Source: a virus. From it: a stretch of DNA of 64,000 bases. Location of the stretch: the IMG/VR virus record IMGVR_UViG_3300009376_000001. The stretch is one strand, 5' to 3'. How positions within the stretch are numbered: the stretch's first letter is position 1; the number at the start of each line of letters is the position of its first letter. Both the position numbers and the translations under genes were made by a program. The notes under the pieces were generated by a model that did no database searches, was not told the origin of the DNA, and saw only the letters and a program-made list of their open reading frames with translations. Of the stretch, positions 22,270 through 55,980 are shown in pieces.

Positions 22270-23574
22270 TTAGGCGTTCAGGTCAGTAATCTTGGCGTGT
22301 GCGTCCAAACGCAAGGATCGTAGTTCACCGATGGTGTAGAACAATCCACGAAGGACGAATGCGTTTGCCTGGAAGAAGTCTCGGTTGTCGATATACTGCG
22401 TAGGAGCAGCAATAGCGAGTTCCAAGTACCGTGTATCCATGACATAGACATTGCTACCAAGGTTAGCATCTGCAGCCGTGAACGAACCCTGAACATCAGG
22501 ATCGACAATGACTGGGATACCCCTATAAGTAGCCACCTGGAAGCCAGCGTGGGAACCTGGAAGAGTGGATTCGTCGCCGACTTTGACAACAAATTCGCCC
22601 CAGTCCAGATAACGTTGCTGAGCTTGCAACAGGGAAGATAGACGGTCAAACTGGTCATAACCCATCAGAATTACGTCAGGGTCAGCACCGTTTACACGAA
22701 CTTCACGAATGGCCTGGTCTAGCAGGGCCAACGTGAGGTTACGCCCAGTACCACTATTACCAAGAACGGTAGCAGCAGCATTGTGCGCTCCAGCAGCACG
22801 AGTAGTTTGGTTATATACGTCTACGCCGTTAGTAACAGTCACGCCAGCTACGACACGAGCATCTTGTTCGACGATGTCGTCAAGAGAAGTGAAGCCAGCA
22901 CGGCTCTTTACATAAACAATCTCACCGTCAGTCAAGTTTCCGCCACCTGTCCAAGTAGCGTCACTCTGAGCGTCAAGACCGCTATAAGTAAGAGCAGTAT
23001 CACCGATGGTGGTTCCACCGAAAGTGTCACCAACACGGAGAGTGTTACCAGCGGAGATTATTTCACCAGTACCAGAGGCACCAGCAGTCGAGGCGATGGT
23101 CATCGAGCGAAGCAGGAGTTCCTGGTTCAACTCTTTTATGTGGTCCCTAGCAGCAGCTTCTTGCTCAACTGCCAGGTTGTCCCCCATACCACCTTCCAGA
23201 CCGCTCATGATCTGGGACTTGAGTGAGACACCGAAGTCAGTAGCTACGATACGAGGAGCAGAGTCCACGTTGACGTAATTGCTGACATCGACAGTGGGAA
23301 GCGCACCAGTTTCAGTTACGGGACGGGAACGGCTATCGCCCCTATCTGACCGCAAACGCCAACCAGTGGTGGGTCCCCATTGTACTTTCCGAAGAATGTT
23401 CCAAAATCGTGTCTGGTTGTTCAATGCGTCCCAGACTTTACGTCCGTAAGTTGCAGTGAACACATCTGATACCTGAAGGTACGTTTGCTTAGCAAAGTAA
23501 CCAGGTGGCATCAGTGAGCTACGCAGATTTCGCTCCGCAGAAGATATATACTGCGCTATGCTTAGATCAGCCAT
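22270..23574 (-). CDS. Major capsid protein (HK97-fold)
   Basis: 434 aa after protease and scaffold; C-rich codon bias suggesting high expression; YGRKVWDALN..GW; VATYRGIPVIVD; YTIGELR..HAKITDL. Confidence 0.85.
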   Translation of the reverse strand: MADLSIAQYISSAERNLRSSLMPPGYFAKQTYLQVSDVFTATYGRKVWDALNNQTRFWNILRKVQWGPTTGWRLRSDRGDSRSRPVTETGALPTVDVSNYVNVDSAPRIVATDFGVSLKSQIMSGLEGGMGDNLAVEQEAAARDHIKELNQELLLRSMTIASTAGASGTGEIISAGNTLRVGDTFGGTTIGDTALTYSGLDAQSDATWTGGGNLTDGEIVYVKSRAGFTSLDDIVEQDARVVAGVTVTNGVDVYNQTTRAAGAHNAAATVLGNSGTGRNLTLALLDQAIREVRVNGADPDVILMGYDQFDRLSSLLQAQQRYLDWGEFVVKVGDESTLPGSHAGFQVATYRGIPVIVDPDVQGSFTAADANLGSNVYVMDTRYLELAIAAPTQYIDNRDFFQANAFVLRGLFYTIGELRSLRLDAHAKITDLNA

Positions 23575-24680: not shown

Positions 24681-27593
24681 TTATCTAGGTCGTAAACTTG
24701 AATCAAACTCTAATTCTTTAATGTTATAACATTCTGGACAAATCATAGGATCTGGTTTTTGTATGATATCTGTAATATATGATTTAGGATTCATTGGAGT
24801 AACACACAACGTTACTTCATAAATCTCCAAATCAGTTACTTCCGTCCAACATTTACCATGTTCACAAATAGTTTTCTTATCTTTTGCATTACCTGCAATA
24901 GAAAATCCTCGCATTCCGCCTTTTAAGACCTCAGCCATAGCTTTTCTAGAAACTTCTAAATCAGTTCTAAACGCTGCAACCACAAACAGTCCTTCAGGTC
25001 GAACCTCGGTTTTCCATTCTTTCCCCGTGGCATCTACAAATCTACGTAGAATTTGACCAACCTGGATGCCCGAATGGAAAATGTTCATATTGGCAAATTC
25101 TTTTTTACCTAAGAATTTATTCATAGCCCGTCGCATGCCATCCAAACCAATACGATGACCTTCACGGTCTACAATATAATAATTACCCCATCCAGCAACC
25201 ACTAAAGTACGACCTGTATCCATTTTTTGAATGGAATTCTCAGTTAATACTTTAAACGCTTCATGCTCTCCCAAAGATTCTGGCGTATCACCCTTACCTA
25301 ACACATAGCTACCTAAATCTTGAGACAATAACGCCAAATTGGTGTATTGTTCCGCTGCATTATCATTAATACTGCGTAATCGATGGTCTTCATCTATAAA
25401 TTGTCTAGTAGCTCGTTCATGTTCTGGTTTCTGAGATATTGCCGTAGGAGCATATGCTTCTTCATCGTCAGCAATCACATAACTACTAGCTTGATCTAGT
25501 CCAATAGGCTGCTGTTCTTTCGGAATTTGATGTTCCTGATCTGAAGCTCTTTGCTCCGCATCATCATCTTCGGAATCTCCAGGCTTATGTCGCTCTACAG
25601 AACGAGGAGGACGAGTATTATCATCAGATGGATATGGAAGTTGAGATACACCTTCATAAGATCCAGCATCCATTGAGTCTTTCAATTGTAAAGCTGAATT
25701 ATATTTACGTTCTCGTCCAGTACGTCCACCATGTGTAGCGGTATGAGTTGCATCTCCTCCGCTTCCTCCAGTGGACATAGCAGTACCTCCACTAAATCCT
25801 CCACCGCCTCCGTCGCCTCCAGCACCTCCGCCTCCACCTGCGCCACCTCCGCCCCCACCTTCTTTCAAAACAGGAGTACGATTAATAGGCTTTAAATTAG
25901 AATCATAATCAGATTCTAAATCGGTATCTGTAGCATCAGCAGGAGCAATCATGGTAACACTGCCATCACCTCCGCCTTCAACCCCCTCTCCGCCCGTACC
26001 ACCAGAAGCTTTCGTATTTACATCTACTCCATCAGTTTCTTCAGGAGAAATATCTATAACAGCACCAGATGAAAAAGCTTGTGTTCCTGTACCAGTTTCT
26101 GCACTGGAAAGAGCTTCTCGTCCATCCTCATCAGGATCAATAGGCTTTTGAGCATCCCTTTCATTATTAGCATATGCCTTCATAGCTAAGGAGGATTTTT
26201 TATTTTCCTCCTCTTCTTTTATCCGACGATAATGCTGAGAAGAAGCCATTGTTCCGTCATTTAAAGCTTCAGGATCGTCTACGCCTAATCCACCTTCATT
26301 AGATTGCTTTTGTATAGGCTTAGAAGGAACCCGACCTTCATCTATATCTGAATATTCCAGATTTTTAAAGTTATCATGTTGAGCTTTAATACGACTCGGA
26401 ACGGTAGCAGTGCCTAATTGATTAGGTTTACGGTCATTTTTATTTGATTGCTGGATGCCCTGATCATCATCTCCTGTGCTGAAAGAAGAAGTTGCTCCCT
26501 CAACAACATTACCAACTGCACTGCCAATACCTGATGCAACAGCCCCGACTCCACGAGCTACTCCTCCAGCAATTGCACCCAAAGCAGGAAGAATCTTTTC
26601 TATTTCTTGTCCACGGACCTGATGAAGCTTATCTTGCCCCTCTACATCATCGCCTTCTTTAAGCTTTACTTTATTAGGAGTAAATACATCCCCAACAGAA
26701 CTAAAAGGATCTCCTAAATCAGAAACATCTCGCTGTTTACTAAAAGCGAACCATTCTCCATCTTGTTGAGTTAATCTAATCTCAACTCCGCCAGCATCAG
26801 CATTCTTAACTAAGAAAGCAAAACCTTCTTCCGCATCATTAGGAATATATTCCCGCATGATAACGTTAGGTTTCTTTTCATCAGTTTTATAATTAGCAGG
26901 ACTCTCTAAATCTTCGTCACTGGTATAGATAAGGTCACGTACATCTTTTTGTACGCCCTCTATTTCTTCTTCTTTATGTTCTCCGGCTTCCCACGGCTGT
27001 TCAGAAACTTCTGCCCATTTTTCGTTCCTCTCAGCCATAGGTACAGGCTTAAAAAGATCACAATACATCTCTTCTTTGACAGGAAGGTCTATCTTTGTAC
27101 AATATCCGCCTGCAGCAAAAAAGATACAGGTATGACATTCTTCAGCTTCTTTCTCAGAAGGACGATAATTAATAAAATCTAAAACGTCTAAATTACTACG
27201 ATTATGTTTAATTAGGTTGAGAAAACTCTCTTCAGAAAATTCTTTAACTAATTCAATACCATCTAAAGACGAAGCTAAATGATCATGTCCTATAGCTGCT
27301 AGCATATCCCTAACATGGTCATTACGTGCCTGAAGAATTTCCCTTAACGCAGCAAAAGAAGGATCAGAACCTTTCTCTTCATCGTCATGAATCTGAGCAA
27401 CTTGATTATAAAATACAGAAGCTGCTTTCTCCCCATCAGGACCAGCATAAAGATTATTTCCGTCTAGACGCACAAAAAACACATCATTATGATGTGCTAA
27501 TTCCACAGCATGGGATTGATCTTGATAAAGACTGAGGATATCAATATCCTCTAATTCTTTTATTAATGCATCTAAAGCGTTTAAGTCAGTCAT
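24681..27593 (-). CDS. Large prohead protease (C-terminal HK97/XkdF-like protease domain)
   Basis: VAGWGNYYIVDREGHRI..NIFHSGIQVG..MRGFSIAG..IYEVTLCVTPMNP; long low-complexity N-terminal region. Confidence 0.8.
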   Translation of the reverse strand: MTDLNALDALIKELEDIDILSLYQDQSHAVELAHHNDVFFVRLDGNNLYAGPDGEKAASVFYNQVAQIHDDEEKGSDPSFAALREILQARNDHVRDMLAAIGHDHLASSLDGIELVKEFSEESFLNLIKHNRSNLDVLDFINYRPSEKEAEECHTCIFFAAGGYCTKIDLPVKEEMYCDLFKPVPMAERNEKWAEVSEQPWEAGEHKEEEIEGVQKDVRDLIYTSDEDLESPANYKTDEKKPNVIMREYIPNDAEEGFAFLVKNADAGGVEIRLTQQDGEWFAFSKQRDVSDLGDPFSSVGDVFTPNKVKLKEGDDVEGQDKLHQVRGQEIEKILPALGAIAGGVARGVGAVASGIGSAVGNVVEGATSSFSTGDDDQGIQQSNKNDRKPNQLGTATVPSRIKAQHDNFKNLEYSDIDEGRVPSKPIQKQSNEGGLGVDDPEALNDGTMASSQHYRRIKEEEENKKSSLAMKAYANNERDAQKPIDPDEDGREALSSAETGTGTQAFSSGAVIDISPEETDGVDVNTKASGGTGGEGVEGGGDGSVTMIAPADATDTDLESDYDSNLKPINRTPVLKEGGGGGGAGGGGGAGGDGGGGGFSGGTAMSTGGSGGDATHTATHGGRTGRERKYNSALQLKDSMDAGSYEGVSQLPYPSDDNTRPPRSVERHKPGDSEDDDAEQRASDQEHQIPKEQQPIGLDQASSYVIADDEEAYAPTAISQKPEHERATRQFIDEDHRLRSINDNAAEQYTNLALLSQDLGSYVLGKGDTPESLGEHEAFKVLTENSIQKMDTGRTLVVAGWGNYYIVDREGHRIGLDGMRRAMNKFLGKKEFANMNIFHSGIQVGQILRRFVDATGKEWKTEVRPEGLFVVAAFRTDLEVSRKAMAEVLKGGMRGFSIAGNAKDKKTICEHGKCWTEVTDLEIYEVTLCVTPMNPKSYITDIIQKPDPMICPECYNIKELEFDSSLRPR

Positions 27594-27602
27594 TAACTAA
27601 AG

Positions 27603-28790
27603 TCATCCTATACTTGGTTGGATGGCACGTTGTGTGGGAGCCGATGGACTAGAACCCCCAAATAGCGGAGCATGACGTGCGCCTGTCTCTCTCATTGCGG
27701 TAGCTTCATTTACATTACCAGGAAGAGCACGTGATCCTCCGCCTGGAGTCATAGCATAGACCTGCTCGCCTCCCGTCTGCTTCTCTATTCCCTCTTGTTC
27801 AGGAGACTCCTGAACATTATGAGAGGGTCATTTATCGCAGTCTTCGTCTTCAGGACCTGTCTCCAGACCATCGGCAGACATGCCCAAACCATCTATGGCG
27901 GAGCCTCCACTACTATTAGGCATCATTTCCAAATCTTGAGAGACAGCGTTAGCTTTTTCCACCGACAAAAAATCAGATAATTCAAAAACATCTGGCTCAT
28001 AGTATAGGAAGGCGGATAAAAAGGCAGGTTCGTTCACTGTATCTATACTTTTCGCTATATTCATACTAGATTCCCACCAATCTTTAGTAGGACGTGTCGA
28101 TCGATTTGTTAGCATCTGATGAACTATTGTTCCTTCGACCAAATCTTCTGCATTAATACTTTCATCTAAATCAAATGATTTTAAAATACTAATATCATCA
28201 ACTAAAGCAGTATCGCCATCCTGTTTAGGCAATACACGATCCACGGAACCCCAAATTTTCAGAATATCAATAGATTTAGCATGAGTACGGACTACAGAAC
28301 TCACAAAATCATTTGATTTTGTAACATCATTCGTCTCATCTTCGTCATCTTCAGTAGTAGCGTATCGATTTAAAAAGGGTTCAGCAATACTGGATTCAGA
28401 ATTTTCCTGCTCATGTCTCTCTAAGTTAGTATTCTGATCATATTCCCCTTTTTCTACATCATCACCTTGAATCTTTGAAGATATTTTATCTCCAATAGCT
28501 TCTCCAATAGCAGGAGCAGCTGCTCTAGCTACTGTACCCATTAAGCCAGATTTCTCTACTTCGTTTTCAGACTGATAAGGATCATCCCCGTTAGTACTAT
28601 CCACATTTACATGCACAGACGGAGCTTTAGCAGGCTGGTGGTCTGACGTATGCCAGTGCATAACATCAGGACACCAATGGTCAGCCTCAGGCAATTCATC
28701 TTCGGTCTTCTGCAAATGCGAAGACTCAATAGAATCAATCATTAAATGTAGGCCATTTACGAAATCTAAATCAGCTTGGGACTGCGTCAT
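27603..28790 (-). CDS. Head-associated protein; ORF 27828-28790 plus an in-frame 74-codon extension past a UGA
   Basis: Acidic, with many (I/V/L)xK motifs; frame stays open from the UGA at 27830-27828 to the UGA at 27605-27603; hairpin directly after the first UGA. Confidence 0.55.
27790..27827 (-). promoter_or_regulatory. SECIS-like or readthrough stem-loop 3' of an in-frame UGA
   Basis: CCCTCT-cataa-TGTTCAGGA-gtc-TCCTGAACA-AGAGGG begins at the first base after UGA. Confidence 0.5.
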
Positions 28791-29537: not shown

Positions 29538-29598
29538 TTACGGCTCTATAGGAGCTATTTTCTCTATTTGGTTTGGACACCAACGAGCAGGCTCAAAA

Positions 29599-30051
29599 TT
29601 AGGTTCCGGATCCGGCTGAATCCGTGGATTCGTCTTTGGTACTACTGTCGGTTTCGTCTTCGGTGATGTTGGCATCTATCTCTATCTCCTTAGCAAGGAA
29701 TTTATATAGTTTTAATTTTAAATCGTATCCCGCATCTGATCCTGTTCCCCAACGAAAAGTCGTAGGAACAATAGCTAACAGTGTTCTTGCTAAAAATTCA
29801 TCAATGGGCAAAGACTCAGTAAGTGAAGAAATCTGAGTAGGTTGCCCTTTCTTTTGTCTAGTTAAAGAACTAATTCCTCTCCAAACATCATATCTAAAAG
29901 ATGACCAATTGGTGACTAAATCTTCTAGAGGAGCATTCGGTATTAGTCCTGAGCCAGAACACATAACCCAATCCAAAAGAAGAAGCTCTTCTTCTGTAAC
30001 CGTAATGTTTTCTACAACTGGAAGTTCCCAGCCGTCATCCCCTAGTACCAT
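29599..30051 (-). CDS. Hypothetical protein
   Basis: GAGG RBS plus ORF. Confidence 0.6.
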   Translation of the reverse strand: MVLGDDGWELPVVENITVTEEELLLLDWVMCSGSGLIPNAPLEDLVTNWSSFRYDVWRGISSLTRQKKGQPTQISSLTESLPIDEFLARTLLAIVPTTFRWGTGSDAGYDLKLKLYKFLAKEIEIDANITEDETDSSTKDESTDSAGSGT

Positions 30052-30088
30052 ATACTACCTCGCATGCCTACGGCAGCTAAATACCGCC

Positions 30089-30631
30089 TCAAGCAGCTTC
30101 TAAATGACTTGGATCGCCTTTTTTATGCTTACATTTAGCACGAGATTGTTTATCCAAATATCTATTAATTAACGTAACAGGGTCAGCAGATCGATTAAAA
30201 CCGCCTTCCTGTGGGCCATAGGTCGCAAATGAAGCAGCAGATGGACCCGTACTGCCTCCCCCTGATCCCGGCTGTGAGGTAGCATGGATACCCATTGAGC
30301 CGCCACCAGGAGCACTACCCCAATTAGTAGTAGGAGCCTGATATACAGTACCAGAACGTCCAATAGTGCCTGAAGCTCCTACTGCCCCACACATATTCTG
30401 AGTACACGCTTTGCCTATTTCAGAGCCTTTTTCATGCCCACAAGGAAAAGTATGTTCATGTTTTTCTACATAACCATCGATAGCTTTCTTAATTAATGAA
30501 ACTATCATAGATTTAGACGCAAAATCACTAAGCTTGTCTTCACTCATGCTAGTTTTAGTCTTCTTACCAGCACGAGCACGAGCAAGCTCAGCACCCATAA
30601 ATCGACGTTGTTTCTCTGATTTAGCTGGCAT
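30089..30631 (-). CDS. DUF3008-like N-terminus, probable head-associated protein
   Basis: MPAKSEKQRRFMGAELAR..MSEDKLSDFASK. Confidence 0.65.
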   Translation of the reverse strand: MPAKSEKQRRFMGAELARARAGKKTKTSMSEDKLSDFASKSMIVSLIKKAIDGYVEKHEHTFPCGHEKGSEIGKACTQNMCGAVGASGTIGRSGTVYQAPTTNWGSAPGGGSMGIHATSQPGSGGGSTGPSAASFATYGPQEGGFNRSADPVTLINRYLDKQSRAKCKHKKGDPSHLEAA

Positions 30632-55773: not shown

Positions 55774-55980
55774 ATGTTTCCAATAACTTTTATTAAAGAC
55801 GAAGAAGGATATGTATCCGAGTGCTGTTTCGCATATCCGGCATTTGAACTGGATATGTCATCAGTCCCTTACGGAGGCCCATCAGGGTTCTGTAGTCGCT
55901 GTCAGGACAACGCCATATTCTTAGTAGAAGACACTGGAGAACCATTCGACACCAAGGGGGAAAAATATGGTGAAAGGTGA
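55774..55980 (+). CDS. Early Zn-binding protein, paralogue of the 63797 ORF
   Basis: SECC.A.P..G.CSRCQD. Confidence 0.7.
   Translation: MFPITFIKDEEGYVSECCFAYPAFELDMSSVPYGGPSGFCSRCQDNAIFLVEDTGEPFDTKGEKYGER

What the first reader, a model, noticed from the sequence alone, without database searches (positions are those of the whole stretch)
27603..27845. In-frame UGA in a C-D-K-UGA context followed by a SECIS-like hairpin: candidate phage selenoprotein or programmed readthrough
Seen (minus strand): GAC TGC GAT AAA TGA CCC TCT CAT AAT GTT CAG GAG TCT CCT GAA CAA GAG GGA ATA GAG AAG. The frame stays open for 74 more codons, ending 9 nt before the protease ATG and filling an otherwise empty 225-bp gap in a tightly packed operon. 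The extension contains an IEK motif like the rest of the protein. A hairpin (6 bp, 5-nt bulge, 9 bp, loop GUC) starts at the first base after UGA, with the loop G about 21 nt downstream and no U-tract. Established: bacterial SECIS elements are hairpins just 3' of UGA with G or GU in a small apical loop, and CxxU is a common selenoprotein motif. Inference: UGA is recoded as Sec or read through, giving two isoforms of a head protein.
Basis: partly seen in the sequence, partly recalled or inferred. Interest (0 to 1): 0.75.

Follow-up and report, generated by a model that had tools for sequence, protein, structure and literature searches.

The report
Conserved UGA recoding in phage head gene
A head-module gene of an uncultured 141-kb marine phage has a UGA "stop" that all 31 related sequences keep, followed by a co-varying hairpin of the bacterial selenocysteine-insertion type; ribosomes almost certainly read through it, most likely inserting selenocysteine, which no paper I could search reports for a phage.

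Summary
The 320-codon gene (28790..27831, minus) ends ...E-D-C-D-K-UGA, and the frame stays open for 74 more codons, ending 9 nt before the next gene.

- **UGA conservation:** all 24 distinct close relatives and all 7 distant relatives with DNA in hand have TGA at this codon (31/31). The next in-frame stop varies freely (TAA 17, TAG 10, TGA 3).
- **Extension:** in the 24 close relatives the downstream frame is always frame 0 and 62-82 codons long (one contig ends after 39). It carries conserved amino-acid motifs, and 22 of 24 have no start codon before the first motif.
- **Hairpin:** an 8-bp hairpin with compensatory changes follows, with G-[U/G] in a small loop 16-23 nt after UGA. It meets the published bacterial SECIS model.
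- **Second site:** gene 30631..30092 has the same signature.
- **Host lead:** the only bacterial genome holding a related phage contig has selA, selB, selD and tRNA-Sec. Two of its own SECIS elements have the same shape.

Recoding of UGA is about 0.9 likely. Selenocysteine is about 0.6 and near-cognate readthrough about 0.27. No relative has Cys at the UGA codon, and the host link rests on one 2-kb contig.

Earlier notes of this scan report other candidate phage selenoproteins on other DNA, but not this family.

The parts
27831..28790 (-). Gene X, first 320 codons: disordered acidic N-half with several [VIL][ED]K motifs, a small helical domain (residues ~175-280), and a disordered tail ending ...GPEDEDCDK
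   Evidence: 90 protein clusters of relatives all end C-x or C-x-x. AlphaFold2 gives the domain pLDDT ~88 and the tail below 50. No Pfam, PHROG or PDB fold match.
27828..27830 (-). The in-frame UGA codon (candidate Sec codon)
   Evidence: TGA in 31 of 31 distinct homologous DNA sequences. The base after it is C 16, A 8, G 7, U 0.
27606..27827 (-). 74-codon in-frame extension; its stop TGA is at 27603-27605, 9 nt before the next gene's ATG
   Evidence: Same frame and conserved in 24 of 24 close relatives; 62-82 codons in the 23 whose contig reaches the stop. Indels are multiples of three. No homologue in distant relatives.
27796..27816 (-). Upper hairpin (SECIS-like): 9-bp stem, loop G-U-C at 27807-27805, closed by A-U; loop G at +24 from the U of UGA
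   Evidence: Family-wide pair count: 87% of cells paired, 5 of 9 pairs with changes on both sides, 0 of 500 shuffles reach the covariation score, slid controls 31-49% paired. The loop G, a synonymous third codon position, is invariant.
27790..27827 (-). Extended structure: a 6-bp lower stem (27827-27822 with 27795-27790) flanking the upper hairpin
   Evidence: The lower stem is seen in only some relatives (WIN, L005, L022, L032), so it is not a conserved part.
27780..27788 (-). I-E-K, a conserved [VIL][ED]K motif 14-21 residues after the UGA (probable prohead-protease cleavage site; inference)
   Evidence: Invariant K and near-invariant E with synonymous codon variation in 24 of 24. The same motif recurs upstream in the protein.
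27657..27722 (-). Conserved module of the extension: P-x-[HG]-x-N-E-x-[TS]-x-x-R ... [FY]-G
   Evidence: P184 (invariant in A1, >=90% in A4), N188, E189 and R194 invariant in alignments A1 and A4. A short helix is predicted here.
24681..27593 (-). Downstream 970-aa gene (C-terminal part weakly protease-like). Its start lies just after the extension's stop, so its translation may be coupled to recoding (inference).
   Evidence: In relatives the extension always ends at or just before this gene's start. Distant relatives have NUDIX or Peptidase_S78 (weak) fusions here.
30065..30631 (-). Second site: gene Y (30631..30092, 180 aa, DUF3008-like N-terminus) ends ...KCKHKKGDPSHLEAA-UGA(30091..30089)-G-G-I-UAG, then a hairpin UGCC[GUA]GGCA (30075..30065) with the loop G at +21
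   Evidence: Orthologues keep TGA. The two Gly codons after it vary only at third positions (GGC/GGA/GGG). The hairpin is 9-10 bp in L003 and L006. In L050, L052 and L005 the frame runs on for 63, 23 and 28 codons. 19 protein clusters all end ...EAA.

Best explanation
Gene X is a phage-encoded selenoprotein gene. When a ribosome reaches the UGA after ...D-C-D-K, the host factor SelB, carrying Sec-tRNA(Sec), is held on the mRNA by the hairpin just beyond the ribosome's leading edge. The hairpin has an 8-9 bp stem and a loop A[G-U-C]U, with the G 21 nt past the UGA. SelB delivers selenocysteine, and translation continues for 74 codons to a stop 9 nt before the next gene.

Ribosomes that lose the race to release factor 2 make the 320-residue form, so two isoforms result: ...CDK, and ...CDK-U-PSH...+74.

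The Sec lies 2-3 residues after the one invariant C-terminal Cys, in a disordered acidic tail, so a Cys-Sec selenenylsulfide or a metal site is plausible. The extension carries a probable prohead-protease site ([VIL][ED]K) and a conserved distal module, so most of it is probably removed or used during head assembly. Gene Y, two genes upstream, uses the same device.

Shown: conservation of UGA, of the frame, of the extension's residues and of the hairpin, and the hairpin's fit to the bacterial SECIS model. Inferred: that the residue is Sec, that SelB binds the hairpin, and all functional statements.
For: 1. TGA in 31 of 31 homologues down to profile-only similarity, while the next in-frame stop is TAA 17, TAG 10, TGA 3.
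2. 24 of 24 close relatives keep a frame-0 extension (62-82 codons in the 23 whose contig reaches its stop) with invariant residues and indels in multiples of three. 22 of 24 have no in-frame start before the conserved [VIL][ED]K.
3. The hairpin co-varies: 5 of 9 pairs change on both sides, 0 of 500 shuffles reach the score, and G-U pairs occur on the sense strand only.
4. All 31 hairpins have G-[U/G] within the first positions of a 3-5 nt loop, a 5-11 bp stem, and a UGA-to-loop spacing of 16-23 nt. In the distant relatives the spacer is mostly non-coding (the frame closes after 1-11 codons), and the spacing still holds. This matches the bSECIS model quoted in PMC13188914: loop 3-9 nt, stem 4-16 bp, pattern N1-G-[G|U]-N-N2, spacing 16-37 nt.
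5. The loop G is a synonymous third codon position yet is invariant.
6. The hairpin starts 10-16 nt after the UGA, outside the ribosome. That is the SECIS geometry, not that of a mechanical stimulator (inference from established ribosome footprints).
7. A second gene in the same module has the same UGA plus hairpin. Its Gly-Gly codons after the UGA are conserved at the amino-acid level, so they are translated even though only 3 codons follow.
8. The only hit to this phage's capsid protein among 185,579 species genomes is a 2-kb phage-like contig in an Acidobacteriota MAG. That MAG has selB (387 bits), selA (542 bits), tRNA-Sec (74.8 bits) and a selD with an in-frame TGA.
9. That MAG's selD SECIS has an 8-bp stem and a triloop GGU closed by A-U, with the G at +24. 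A peroxiredoxin SECIS has a triloop GGC closed by A-U, with the G at +27. This is the same architecture as the phage hairpin.
10. Cys is invariant 2-3 residues before the UGA in 90 of 90 clusters.
Against: - No homologue with Cys at the UGA codon was found among 90 + 19 protein clusters or in the profile search, although nearly all known selenoproteins have such relatives (PMC13188914). The only hint is 'E-C-D-C-P' in two distant relatives (P0092, P0093). By the position of their own terminal TGA and hairpin, it may not be the same codon.
- The UGA lies in a predicted disordered tail, not in a known redox fold.
- The C-terminal Cys is also conserved in distant relatives that have almost no tail after the TGA, so it is not by itself evidence for a Cys-Sec pair. 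One relative has no Cys nearby (L061).
- The host is unknown. The MAG link rests on one 2-kb binned contig, and genes X and the protease were not found in that MAG.
- Relatives come from both ocean and groundwater, so all of their hosts would need Sec machinery.
- The minimal-hairpin energy passes -7.5 kcal/mol in only 21 of 31.
- There is no Rfam SECIS match, and the phage has no sel genes or tRNA-Sec.
Confidence: 0.6

Rival explanations
1. Programmed leaky termination of the Q-beta A1 type. UGA is occasionally read by a near-cognate tRNA (Trp), giving a few percent of the extended isoform and perhaps coupling translation of the downstream protease gene to that rare event. The hairpin either raises readthrough or serves another purpose, such as mRNA stability or processing.
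For: - UGA is the leakiest stop and is kept in 31 of 31. The base after it is never U, the strongest terminator context, and is C in 16 of 31 (context effects per PMC7026636 and PMC5289835).
- The extension is disordered, as is typical of readthrough tails (PMC7026636).
- No Cys variant exists at the codon.
- It needs no special host machinery, which fits a phage group spread over ocean and groundwater.
- Distant relatives have a back-up stop 1-11 codons after the TGA, as expected behind a leaky stop.
- The extension always ends at the protease gene's start.
Against: - No hairpin-dependent readthrough is known in bacteria (my knowledge; none appeared).
- The hairpin sits outside the ribosome when UGA is in the A site.
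- Its loop keeps G-[U/G] and its distance to UGA while the stems change completely, which points to a sequence-specific binding factor.
- In gene Y and in the distant relatives the tail is only 1-4 residues, yet UGA, the hairpin and (in Y) the Gly-Gly codons are conserved. This is hard to explain if only a long extension mattered.
Confidence: 0.27
2. UGA-specific recoding driven by the hairpin through a factor other than SelB, for example a phage RNA-binding protein that blocks release factor 2, or an unrecognised suppressor tRNA.
For: The conserved loop sequence and fixed distance imply a binding partner. Most of the phage's proteins have no known function.
Against: There is no precedent and no suppressor tRNA: only tRNA-Leu(UAA) was found. 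The element already fits the known SECIS model, and it matches the native SECIS elements of the candidate host.
Confidence: 0.06
3. UGA is an ordinary stop. The downstream 74 codons are a separate small gene or untranslated, and the hairpin is a gene-end RNA element such as a stabiliser or attenuator.
For: - Gene callers call small ORFs inside the extension.
- One variant (P0110) has an ATG at the 5' arm of the hairpin.
- Distant relatives have the TGA and hairpin but no extension.
Against: - The extension is in frame 0 in 24 of 24 relatives.
- Its conservation starts right after the UGA, and 22 of 24 have no in-frame start before the invariant [VIL][ED]K.
- Spacer indels are multiples of three.
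- An ordinary stop would not stay TGA in 31 of 31 when the next stop varies.
- There is no U-tract after the hairpin.
Confidence: 0.05

Closest known systems
Bacterial selenoprotein genes with an in-ORF SECIS read by SelB (prototype E. coli fdhF; bSECIS consensus model of Zhang and Gladyshev as summarised in PMC13188914)
   Same: An in-frame UGA followed by a small hairpin. The loop fits N1-G-[G|U]-N-N2: here A-G-U-C-U, against fdhF A-G-G-U-C-U from my memory of the fdhF sequence. The loop lies 16-23 nt after the UGA, and the hairpin lies inside the continuing ORF. There is a Cys two or three residues from the UGA. The SECIS elements of selD and a peroxiredoxin in the candidate host MAG have the same shape.
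   Different: - It is encoded by a phage, in the head module.
- The protein has no known fold or redox domain, and the UGA lies in a disordered tail.
- No Cys-containing homologue was found.
- The part after Sec ranges from 1 to 82 residues among relatives.
Q-beta coat / A1 readthrough protein (UGA read by tRNA-Trp; Weiner and Weber 1973, cited in PMC8310308)
   Same: A phage structural gene whose UGA is passed at low frequency, giving a C-terminally extended minor isoform.
   Different: Q-beta is an RNA phage and, to my knowledge, needs no downstream hairpin. Here a co-varying hairpin with a conserved loop accompanies the UGA, and the same signal occurs where only 1-4 codons follow.
Programmed frameshifts that give two isoforms of dsDNA-phage structural proteins (T7 gene 10A/10B, lambda G/GT, Listeria phage PSA; PMC8310308, PMC5009743)
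   Same: A fixed ratio of a short and a C-terminally extended virion-module protein made from one mRNA.
   Different: Those involve a change of frame at a slippery site. Here the frame is unchanged and a stop codon is decoded.
Stop-codon reassignment in phages (code 15 or code 4 phages; PMC9523058)
   Same: A stop codon read as sense in late genes.
   Different: Reassignment affects many codons and comes with suppressor tRNAs. This genome is dense under code 11, about 40 called ORFs end in TGA, it has no suppressor tRNA, and only two sites show the signal.

Membership tests
Bacterial SECIS-dependent selenoprotein gene | In-frame UGA with the ORF continuing under coding constraint | tested here: met
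   24 of 24 close relatives have a frame-0 extension with invariant residues, indels in multiples of three, and no start codon before the first motif in 22 of 24. In gene Y the Gly-Gly codons after the UGA vary only at third positions.
Bacterial SECIS-dependent selenoprotein gene | bSECIS (i): apical loop 3-9 nt and upper stem 4-16 bp | tested here: met
   Loops are 3-5 nt and stems 5-11 bp in 31 of 31. The window has 9 bp and a 3-nt loop. Criteria are quoted from PMC13188914.
Bacterial SECIS-dependent selenoprotein gene | bSECIS (ii): G in the first two loop positions, mostly N1-G-[G|U]-N-N2 | tested here: met
   31 of 31: GUC 18, GGA 5, GGU 1, and CGUGA, AGUUG, AGUU(A), CGUG and CGGGA in the rest. 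The closing pair is A-U in all 24 close relatives. The loop G is invariant although it is a synonymous site.
Bacterial SECIS-dependent selenoprotein gene | bSECIS (iii): 16-37 nt between the UGA and the apical loop | tested here: met
   16-23 nt in 31 of 31.
Bacterial SECIS-dependent selenoprotein gene | bSECIS (iv): folding energy at or below -7.5 kcal/mol | tested here: inconclusive
   The window gives -11.1 (upper hairpin) and -20.9 (whole structure), which passes. Across the family the minimal hairpin alone passes in 21 of 31.
Bacterial SECIS-dependent selenoprotein gene | Homologues with Cys at the position of the UGA | tested here: not met
   None among 90 clusters of X and 19 of Y, nor in the profile search of 1.84 billion representatives. 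'ECD-C-P' in P0092 and P0093 is ambiguous.
Bacterial SECIS-dependent selenoprotein gene | Host has selA, selB, selC and selD | tested here: inconclusive
   The host is unknown. The one MAG holding a related phage contig (92% identity to the capsid protein's C-terminal part, 2-kb contig) has all four and native selenoprotein genes. The phage itself has none.
Bacterial SECIS-dependent selenoprotein gene | Selenium demonstrably in the protein | not testable with these tools
   Needs 75Se labelling or mass spectrometry.
Rfam SECIS families | Match to a curated SECIS covariance model | tested here: not met
   No SECIS family matched even at E up to 10. Rfam's bacterial SECIS models are few and lineage-specific, so this is weak evidence.
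Near-cognate programmed readthrough (Q-beta A1 type) | Leaky stop (UGA, not followed by U) with a conserved in-frame extension | tested here: met
   UGA in 31 of 31. The fourth base is C 16, A 8, G 7, U 0. The extension is conserved.
Near-cognate programmed readthrough (Q-beta A1 type) | Residue inserted by an ordinary tRNA (Trp), independent of SelB and selenium | not testable with these tools
   Needs a reporter assay or proteomics.
Genome-wide stop-codon reassignment (code 4, 25 or 15 phages) | Many in-frame recoded stops and a suppressor tRNA | tested here: not met
   Code 11 ORFs cover the genome. About 40 called ORFs end in TGA. Only tRNA-Leu(UAA) is present, and only gene X stands out in a genome-wide scan for split frames.

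The most novel reading that the evidence does not exclude
The head module of a widespread group of marine phages (about 100 sequence clusters, with relatives in groundwater) encodes at least two selenoproteins. Each has Sec near the C-terminus and its own SECIS matched to the host's SelB. Virion assembly, and possibly translation of the prohead protease gene, would then depend on the host's selenium status. These would be the first natural selenoproteins of a virus of bacteria, and the first structural-module ones in any virus.
Probability: 0.5. Interest if true: 0.88.

Novelty: new variant of a known kind. Interest (0 to 1): 0.8.

Why it matters
If the residue is Sec, selenoprotein synthesis extends to bacteriophages. 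A phage would borrow SelB and tRNA-Sec for proteins of the head module, tying phage production to selenium supply in the ocean. It would add a gene family without Cys homologues, which standard Cys/Sec-pair searches cannot find.

If the residue is Trp, this would be, as far as I know, the first conserved programmed readthrough in a large dsDNA phage that comes with a dedicated RNA element.

Either way, gene callers truncate this gene in every database entry I saw. The same applies to gene Y. The two-site signature (UGA, then 16-23 nt, then a G-[U/G] small-loop hairpin) gives a concrete search pattern.

A 2026 review of prokaryotic selenoproteomes does not mention phages or viruses at all. Four literature searches found no natural phage selenoprotein.

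Tried and rejected
- **Alternative genetic code:** rejected. ORF statistics under codes with each stop read as sense show nothing special, and there is no suppressor tRNA.
- **Cultured phage relatives:** none for gene X by DNA or protein. The capsid protein's nearest cultured relatives are haloarchaeal tailed viruses at about 30% identity. PolA, DnaB-type helicase and a bacterial-type CCA enzyme point to a bacterial host, so I dropped an archaeal-host reading.
- **Rfam:** no SECIS hit.
- **Fold search of the AlphaFold2 model against PDB:** nothing.
- **Bacterial genomes:** none held gene X.
- **Scans of IMG/VR with the distant small homologues:** found nothing.
- **Covariance model built from 12 close X-site elements (R1):** it recovered held-out X sites at the right place (L001, L050, L003, L009, L062). 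It did not recover the MAG's SECIS elements or the Y sites, because it is dominated by primary sequence and so is uninformative as a SECIS test.
- **Hairpin enrichment after TGA stops in this genome:** not significant (3 of 40 against 8 of 184 after TAA/TAG). The hairpin is therefore not a general gene-end feature.
- **Formal pair count for the Y hairpin:** abandoned because MAFFT shifted one row. Stems were read directly instead.
- **Extension derived from a separate gene in distant relatives:** rejected, no homologue found.
Full report
**What is in the window.**
The window is the reverse strand of bases 59576-123575 of a complete, terminally repeated 141,341-bp phage genome with 39.8% G+C. 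On the minus strand, ORF 28790..27831 (320 aa, 'gene X') ends ...G-P-E-D-E-D-C-D-K-TGA. The same frame continues for 74 codons to TGA at 27605..27603, 9 nt before the ATG of a 970-aa gene. The C-terminus of that gene weakly resembles a head maturation protease. A 338-aa gene and the major capsid protein (SU10_MCP) follow.

The genome is densely coding under the standard code. It has a single tRNA (Leu-UAA) and no sel genes. About 40 called ORFs end in TGA, and gene X is the only ORF of at least 80 aa ending in TGA that is followed by 30 or more open codons. In a looser scan (at least 40 open codons before and 25 after a TGA, no long ORF over the downstream stretch) it is the only site that also has a long hairpin with G in the loop. 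A hairpin of this size alone would be unremarkable: one search found about 60 per strand, against 35-51 in shuffles.

**Comparative evidence for recoding.**
Scans of IMG/VR and JGI/Tara metagenome contigs, plus look-ups of database proteins, gave 24 distinct DNA sequences of close relatives. Their identity to the window over the conserved domain ranges from about 84% down to 45%. All are from marine samples.

- Every one has TGA at the equivalent codon, after C-[DEP] or C-[DE]-[DKT].
- Every one continues in the same frame to a stop at or just before the start of the protease-like gene: 62-82 codons in 23, while the L036 contig ends after 39 open codons.
- The extension is conserved as protein. 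It has an invariant K and near-invariant E of a [VIL][ED]K motif 14-21 residues after the UGA, then P-x-[HG]-x-N-E-x-[TS]-x-x-R and a [FY]-containing end.
- Indels are multiples of three. Codon positions differ in the order 3 > 1 > 2.
- 22 of 24 have no in-frame ATG, GTG or TTG between the UGA and the motif.
- All 90 protein clusters in the 5.8-billion-protein collection stop at this codon, so no sense-codon variant exists there.
- The first stop is TGA in 31 of 31, while the following stop is TAA 17, TAG 10, TGA 3. The base after the UGA is never U.

I conclude that ribosomes pass this UGA by design. I put that at about 0.9.

**The hairpin.**
In an in-register alignment of 20 sequences, the 8-bp core of the hairpin is paired in essentially all of them.

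- Five pairs show changes on both sides, for example CUCAGGA/UCCUGAG, GCUGCGA/UCGCAGC, UCUUCGA/UCGAAGA and UCUCUGG/UCAGAGA.
- 0 of 500 shuffles reach the covariation score, and slid controls drop to 31-49% paired.
- G-U pairs occur only on the sense strand, so the structure is RNA.
- The amino acids encoded by the arms change together (E/K with P/S) to keep the pairing.
- The loop is G-U-C in 18, G-G-A in 4, G-G-U in 1 and A-G-U-U-G in 1 of the 24 close relatives. The closing pair is always A-U.
- The loop G is the third base of a Glu or Lys codon and never changes.
- Its position is +21, +24 or +27 from the U of UGA.

**Distant relatives.**
A profile search of 1.84 billion representatives found small (120-240 aa) and differently built relatives. 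DNA was retrievable for seven of them, one from groundwater. All seven also end in TGA, but their frame closes after 1-11 codons at TAA or TAG.

All seven nevertheless have a hairpin with G-[U/G] at loop positions 1-2 or 2-3, with the G at +21 to +26. Some stems (CUUCGA...) are recognisably related to those of the close clade. So the pairing of UGA and hairpin is older than the long extension, and it keeps its spacing where the spacer is mostly not coding. The extension itself has no homologue in those loci. Most of these relatives also end in C-x(1,2)-TGA. Two have 'E-C-D-C-P...' eleven codons before their TGA, and one has no Cys nearby.

**A second site.**
I followed a lead in an earlier first-reader note of this scan (e1-5763163) and examined gene Y (30631..30092). 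It ends ...K-C-K-H-K-K-G-D-P-S-H-L-E-A-A-TGA-G-G-I-TAG, followed by a small hairpin UGCC[GUA]GGCA with the loop G at +21.

- Orthologues in L006, L003 and L001 keep the TGA.
- They also keep Gly-Gly-[Ile/Thr], with only third-position changes in the Gly codons, so these three codons are translated.
- The hairpin is 9-10 bp in L003 and L006.
- In L050, L052 and L005 the frame runs on for 63, 23 and 28 codons, with hairpin loops GUU, GGU and CGGGUU.
- All 19 protein clusters of Y end at ...EAA.

Two genes of one module with the same signal argue for one shared trans-acting mechanism. A conserved 3-residue tail is hard to explain unless the residue placed at the UGA is what matters.

**Fit to the SECIS model and a host lead.**
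A 2026 review (PMC13188914) gives the bacterial SECIS model: apical loop 3-9 nt, stem 4-16 bp, G in the first two loop positions (mostly N1-G-[G|U]-N-N2 with N1 and N2 paired), 16-37 nt from the UGA, and energy at or below -7.5 kcal/mol. The first three criteria are met in 31 of 31. The energy criterion is met by the window and by 21 of 31 minimal hairpins. The hairpin begins 10-16 nt after the UGA, just outside a ribosome that has UGA in its A site. That is where a SECIS sits, not where frameshift-type stimulators sit; this is an inference from established footprint data.

The host is unknown. PolA, DnaB and a bacterial CCA-adding enzyme indicate a bacterium. A scan of 185,579 species genomes with the capsid protein gave one hit: a 2,030-bp contig in an Acidobacteriota MAG, 92% identical over the capsid protein's C-terminal part, which also carries a homologue of another gene of this phage.

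- That MAG has selB (387 bits), selA (542 bits), tRNA-Sec (74.8 bits), a selD with an in-frame TGA, and two peroxiredoxin-family genes with in-frame TGA.
- Its selD SECIS is AAUCCAAA[GGU]UUUGGAUU, with the loop G at +24.
- One peroxiredoxin SECIS has a triloop GGC closed by A-U, with the G at +27.
- Both have the same architecture as the phage element. A third SECIS differs.

The link between phage and MAG is weak. It rests on one short binned contig, and genes X and the protease were not found there.

**Weighing the mechanisms.**
For selenocysteine:
- the SECIS-conforming, co-varying hairpin with a conserved loop and spacing;
- the second site;
- the translated 3-codon tail of gene Y;
- the neighbouring invariant Cys;
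- the Sec-competent candidate host with look-alike SECIS elements.

Against:
- no Cys homologue at the codon;
- a disordered context without a known redox fold;
- the Cys is conserved regardless of the tail;
- an uncertain host;
- a phage group spread over habitats.

Near-cognate readthrough explains the UGA, the missing +4 U, the back-up stops and the disordered extension. It could also couple protease translation to a rare event. It does not explain the hairpin's conserved loop and spacing, or the very short conserved tails. I put Sec at 0.6, readthrough at 0.27, another factor-dependent recoding at 0.06, and an ordinary stop at 0.05.

**Function (inferred).**
It also has a small helical domain of unknown fold and a disordered acidic tail. 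The recoded isoform would carry Cys-x-x-Sec, a cleavage motif 14 residues on, and a conserved distal module that may dock in the prohead before being cut off. None of this was tested.

**Novelty.**
I found no report of a natural phage-encoded selenoprotein, or of hairpin-associated UGA readthrough in a dsDNA phage, in four searches. The 2026 review does not mention phages or viruses. Earlier AI notes of this scan describe other candidate phage selenoprotein families on other DNA. None resembles this protein by sequence, and I did not test them. The mechanism is a known kind; its use by a phage for head-module proteins is a new variant.

Noticed in passing
window 29541-30051 (minus): The 150-aa ORF 30051..29599 is overlapped at its end by a 45-codon ORF in another frame (29675..29541: MPTSPKTKP...NFEPARWCPNQIEKIAPIEP). 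That ORF ends exactly at the next gene's start and contains an IEK motif. A very similar peptide (...NFEPSRWCPSQIERIAPHTPD) is open in L004. It may be a programmed frameshift or an uncalled small gene.
   Followed up: partly
L050:1135-1430 and L009:1228-1520: In some relatives gene Y is split or shortened. Further small ORFs end ...SSGG-TGA-TAA or ...SLGG-TGA-G-TAA, each followed by a 7-8 bp hairpin with a GUU loop at +20 or +21. The TGA-plus-hairpin signal may occur at more than two places in this phage group.
   Followed up: partly
L058:3440-3520 and L060:1590-1670: Two distant relatives of gene X (P0093, P0092) have E-C-D-C-P-N-H... where the close clade has D-C-D-UGA-P-(K)-S-H.... They nevertheless end eleven codons later in their own TGA plus hairpin. 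This is either a Cys counterpart of the UGA codon or a coincidence; I could not resolve it.
   Followed up: partly
window 27831-28790 (minus) and relatives: Gene X carries repeated [VIL][ED]K motifs (EVEK, DVEK, SVEK, GIEK) and highly variable inserts between conserved blocks. It looks like a protease-processed internal head or scaffold-like protein. Its helical C-terminal domain has no Pfam, PHROG or PDB match.
   Followed up: partly
window 22270-23574 (minus): The nearest cultured relatives of the major capsid protein are haloarchaeal tailed viruses (HVTV-1, HCTV-5; ~30% identity over 38% of the protein). The replication genes (PolA, DnaB-like helicase) are bacterial-phage-like.
   Followed up: no
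window ~55774-55980 (plus): A 68-codon ORF ends ...KGEKYGER-TGA and the same frame stays open for 67 more codons in a stretch with no other long ORF. Conservation was not examined.
   Followed up: no
G001 (Acidobacteriota MAG), loci L080, L089, L093: The MAG has at least three selenoprotein genes: selD (KAAG-U-AGK) and two AhpC/TSA-family genes (NTPG-U-TRE, VTGG-U-TRE). Two of the three SECIS elements are long stems with a G-G-N triloop closed by A-U.
   Followed up: partly
L054-L062, genes downstream of X: In distant relatives the large gene after X is a fusion carrying a NUDIX domain and, weakly, Peptidase_S78. The 970-aa gene of the window gave no Pfam hit.
   Followed up: no
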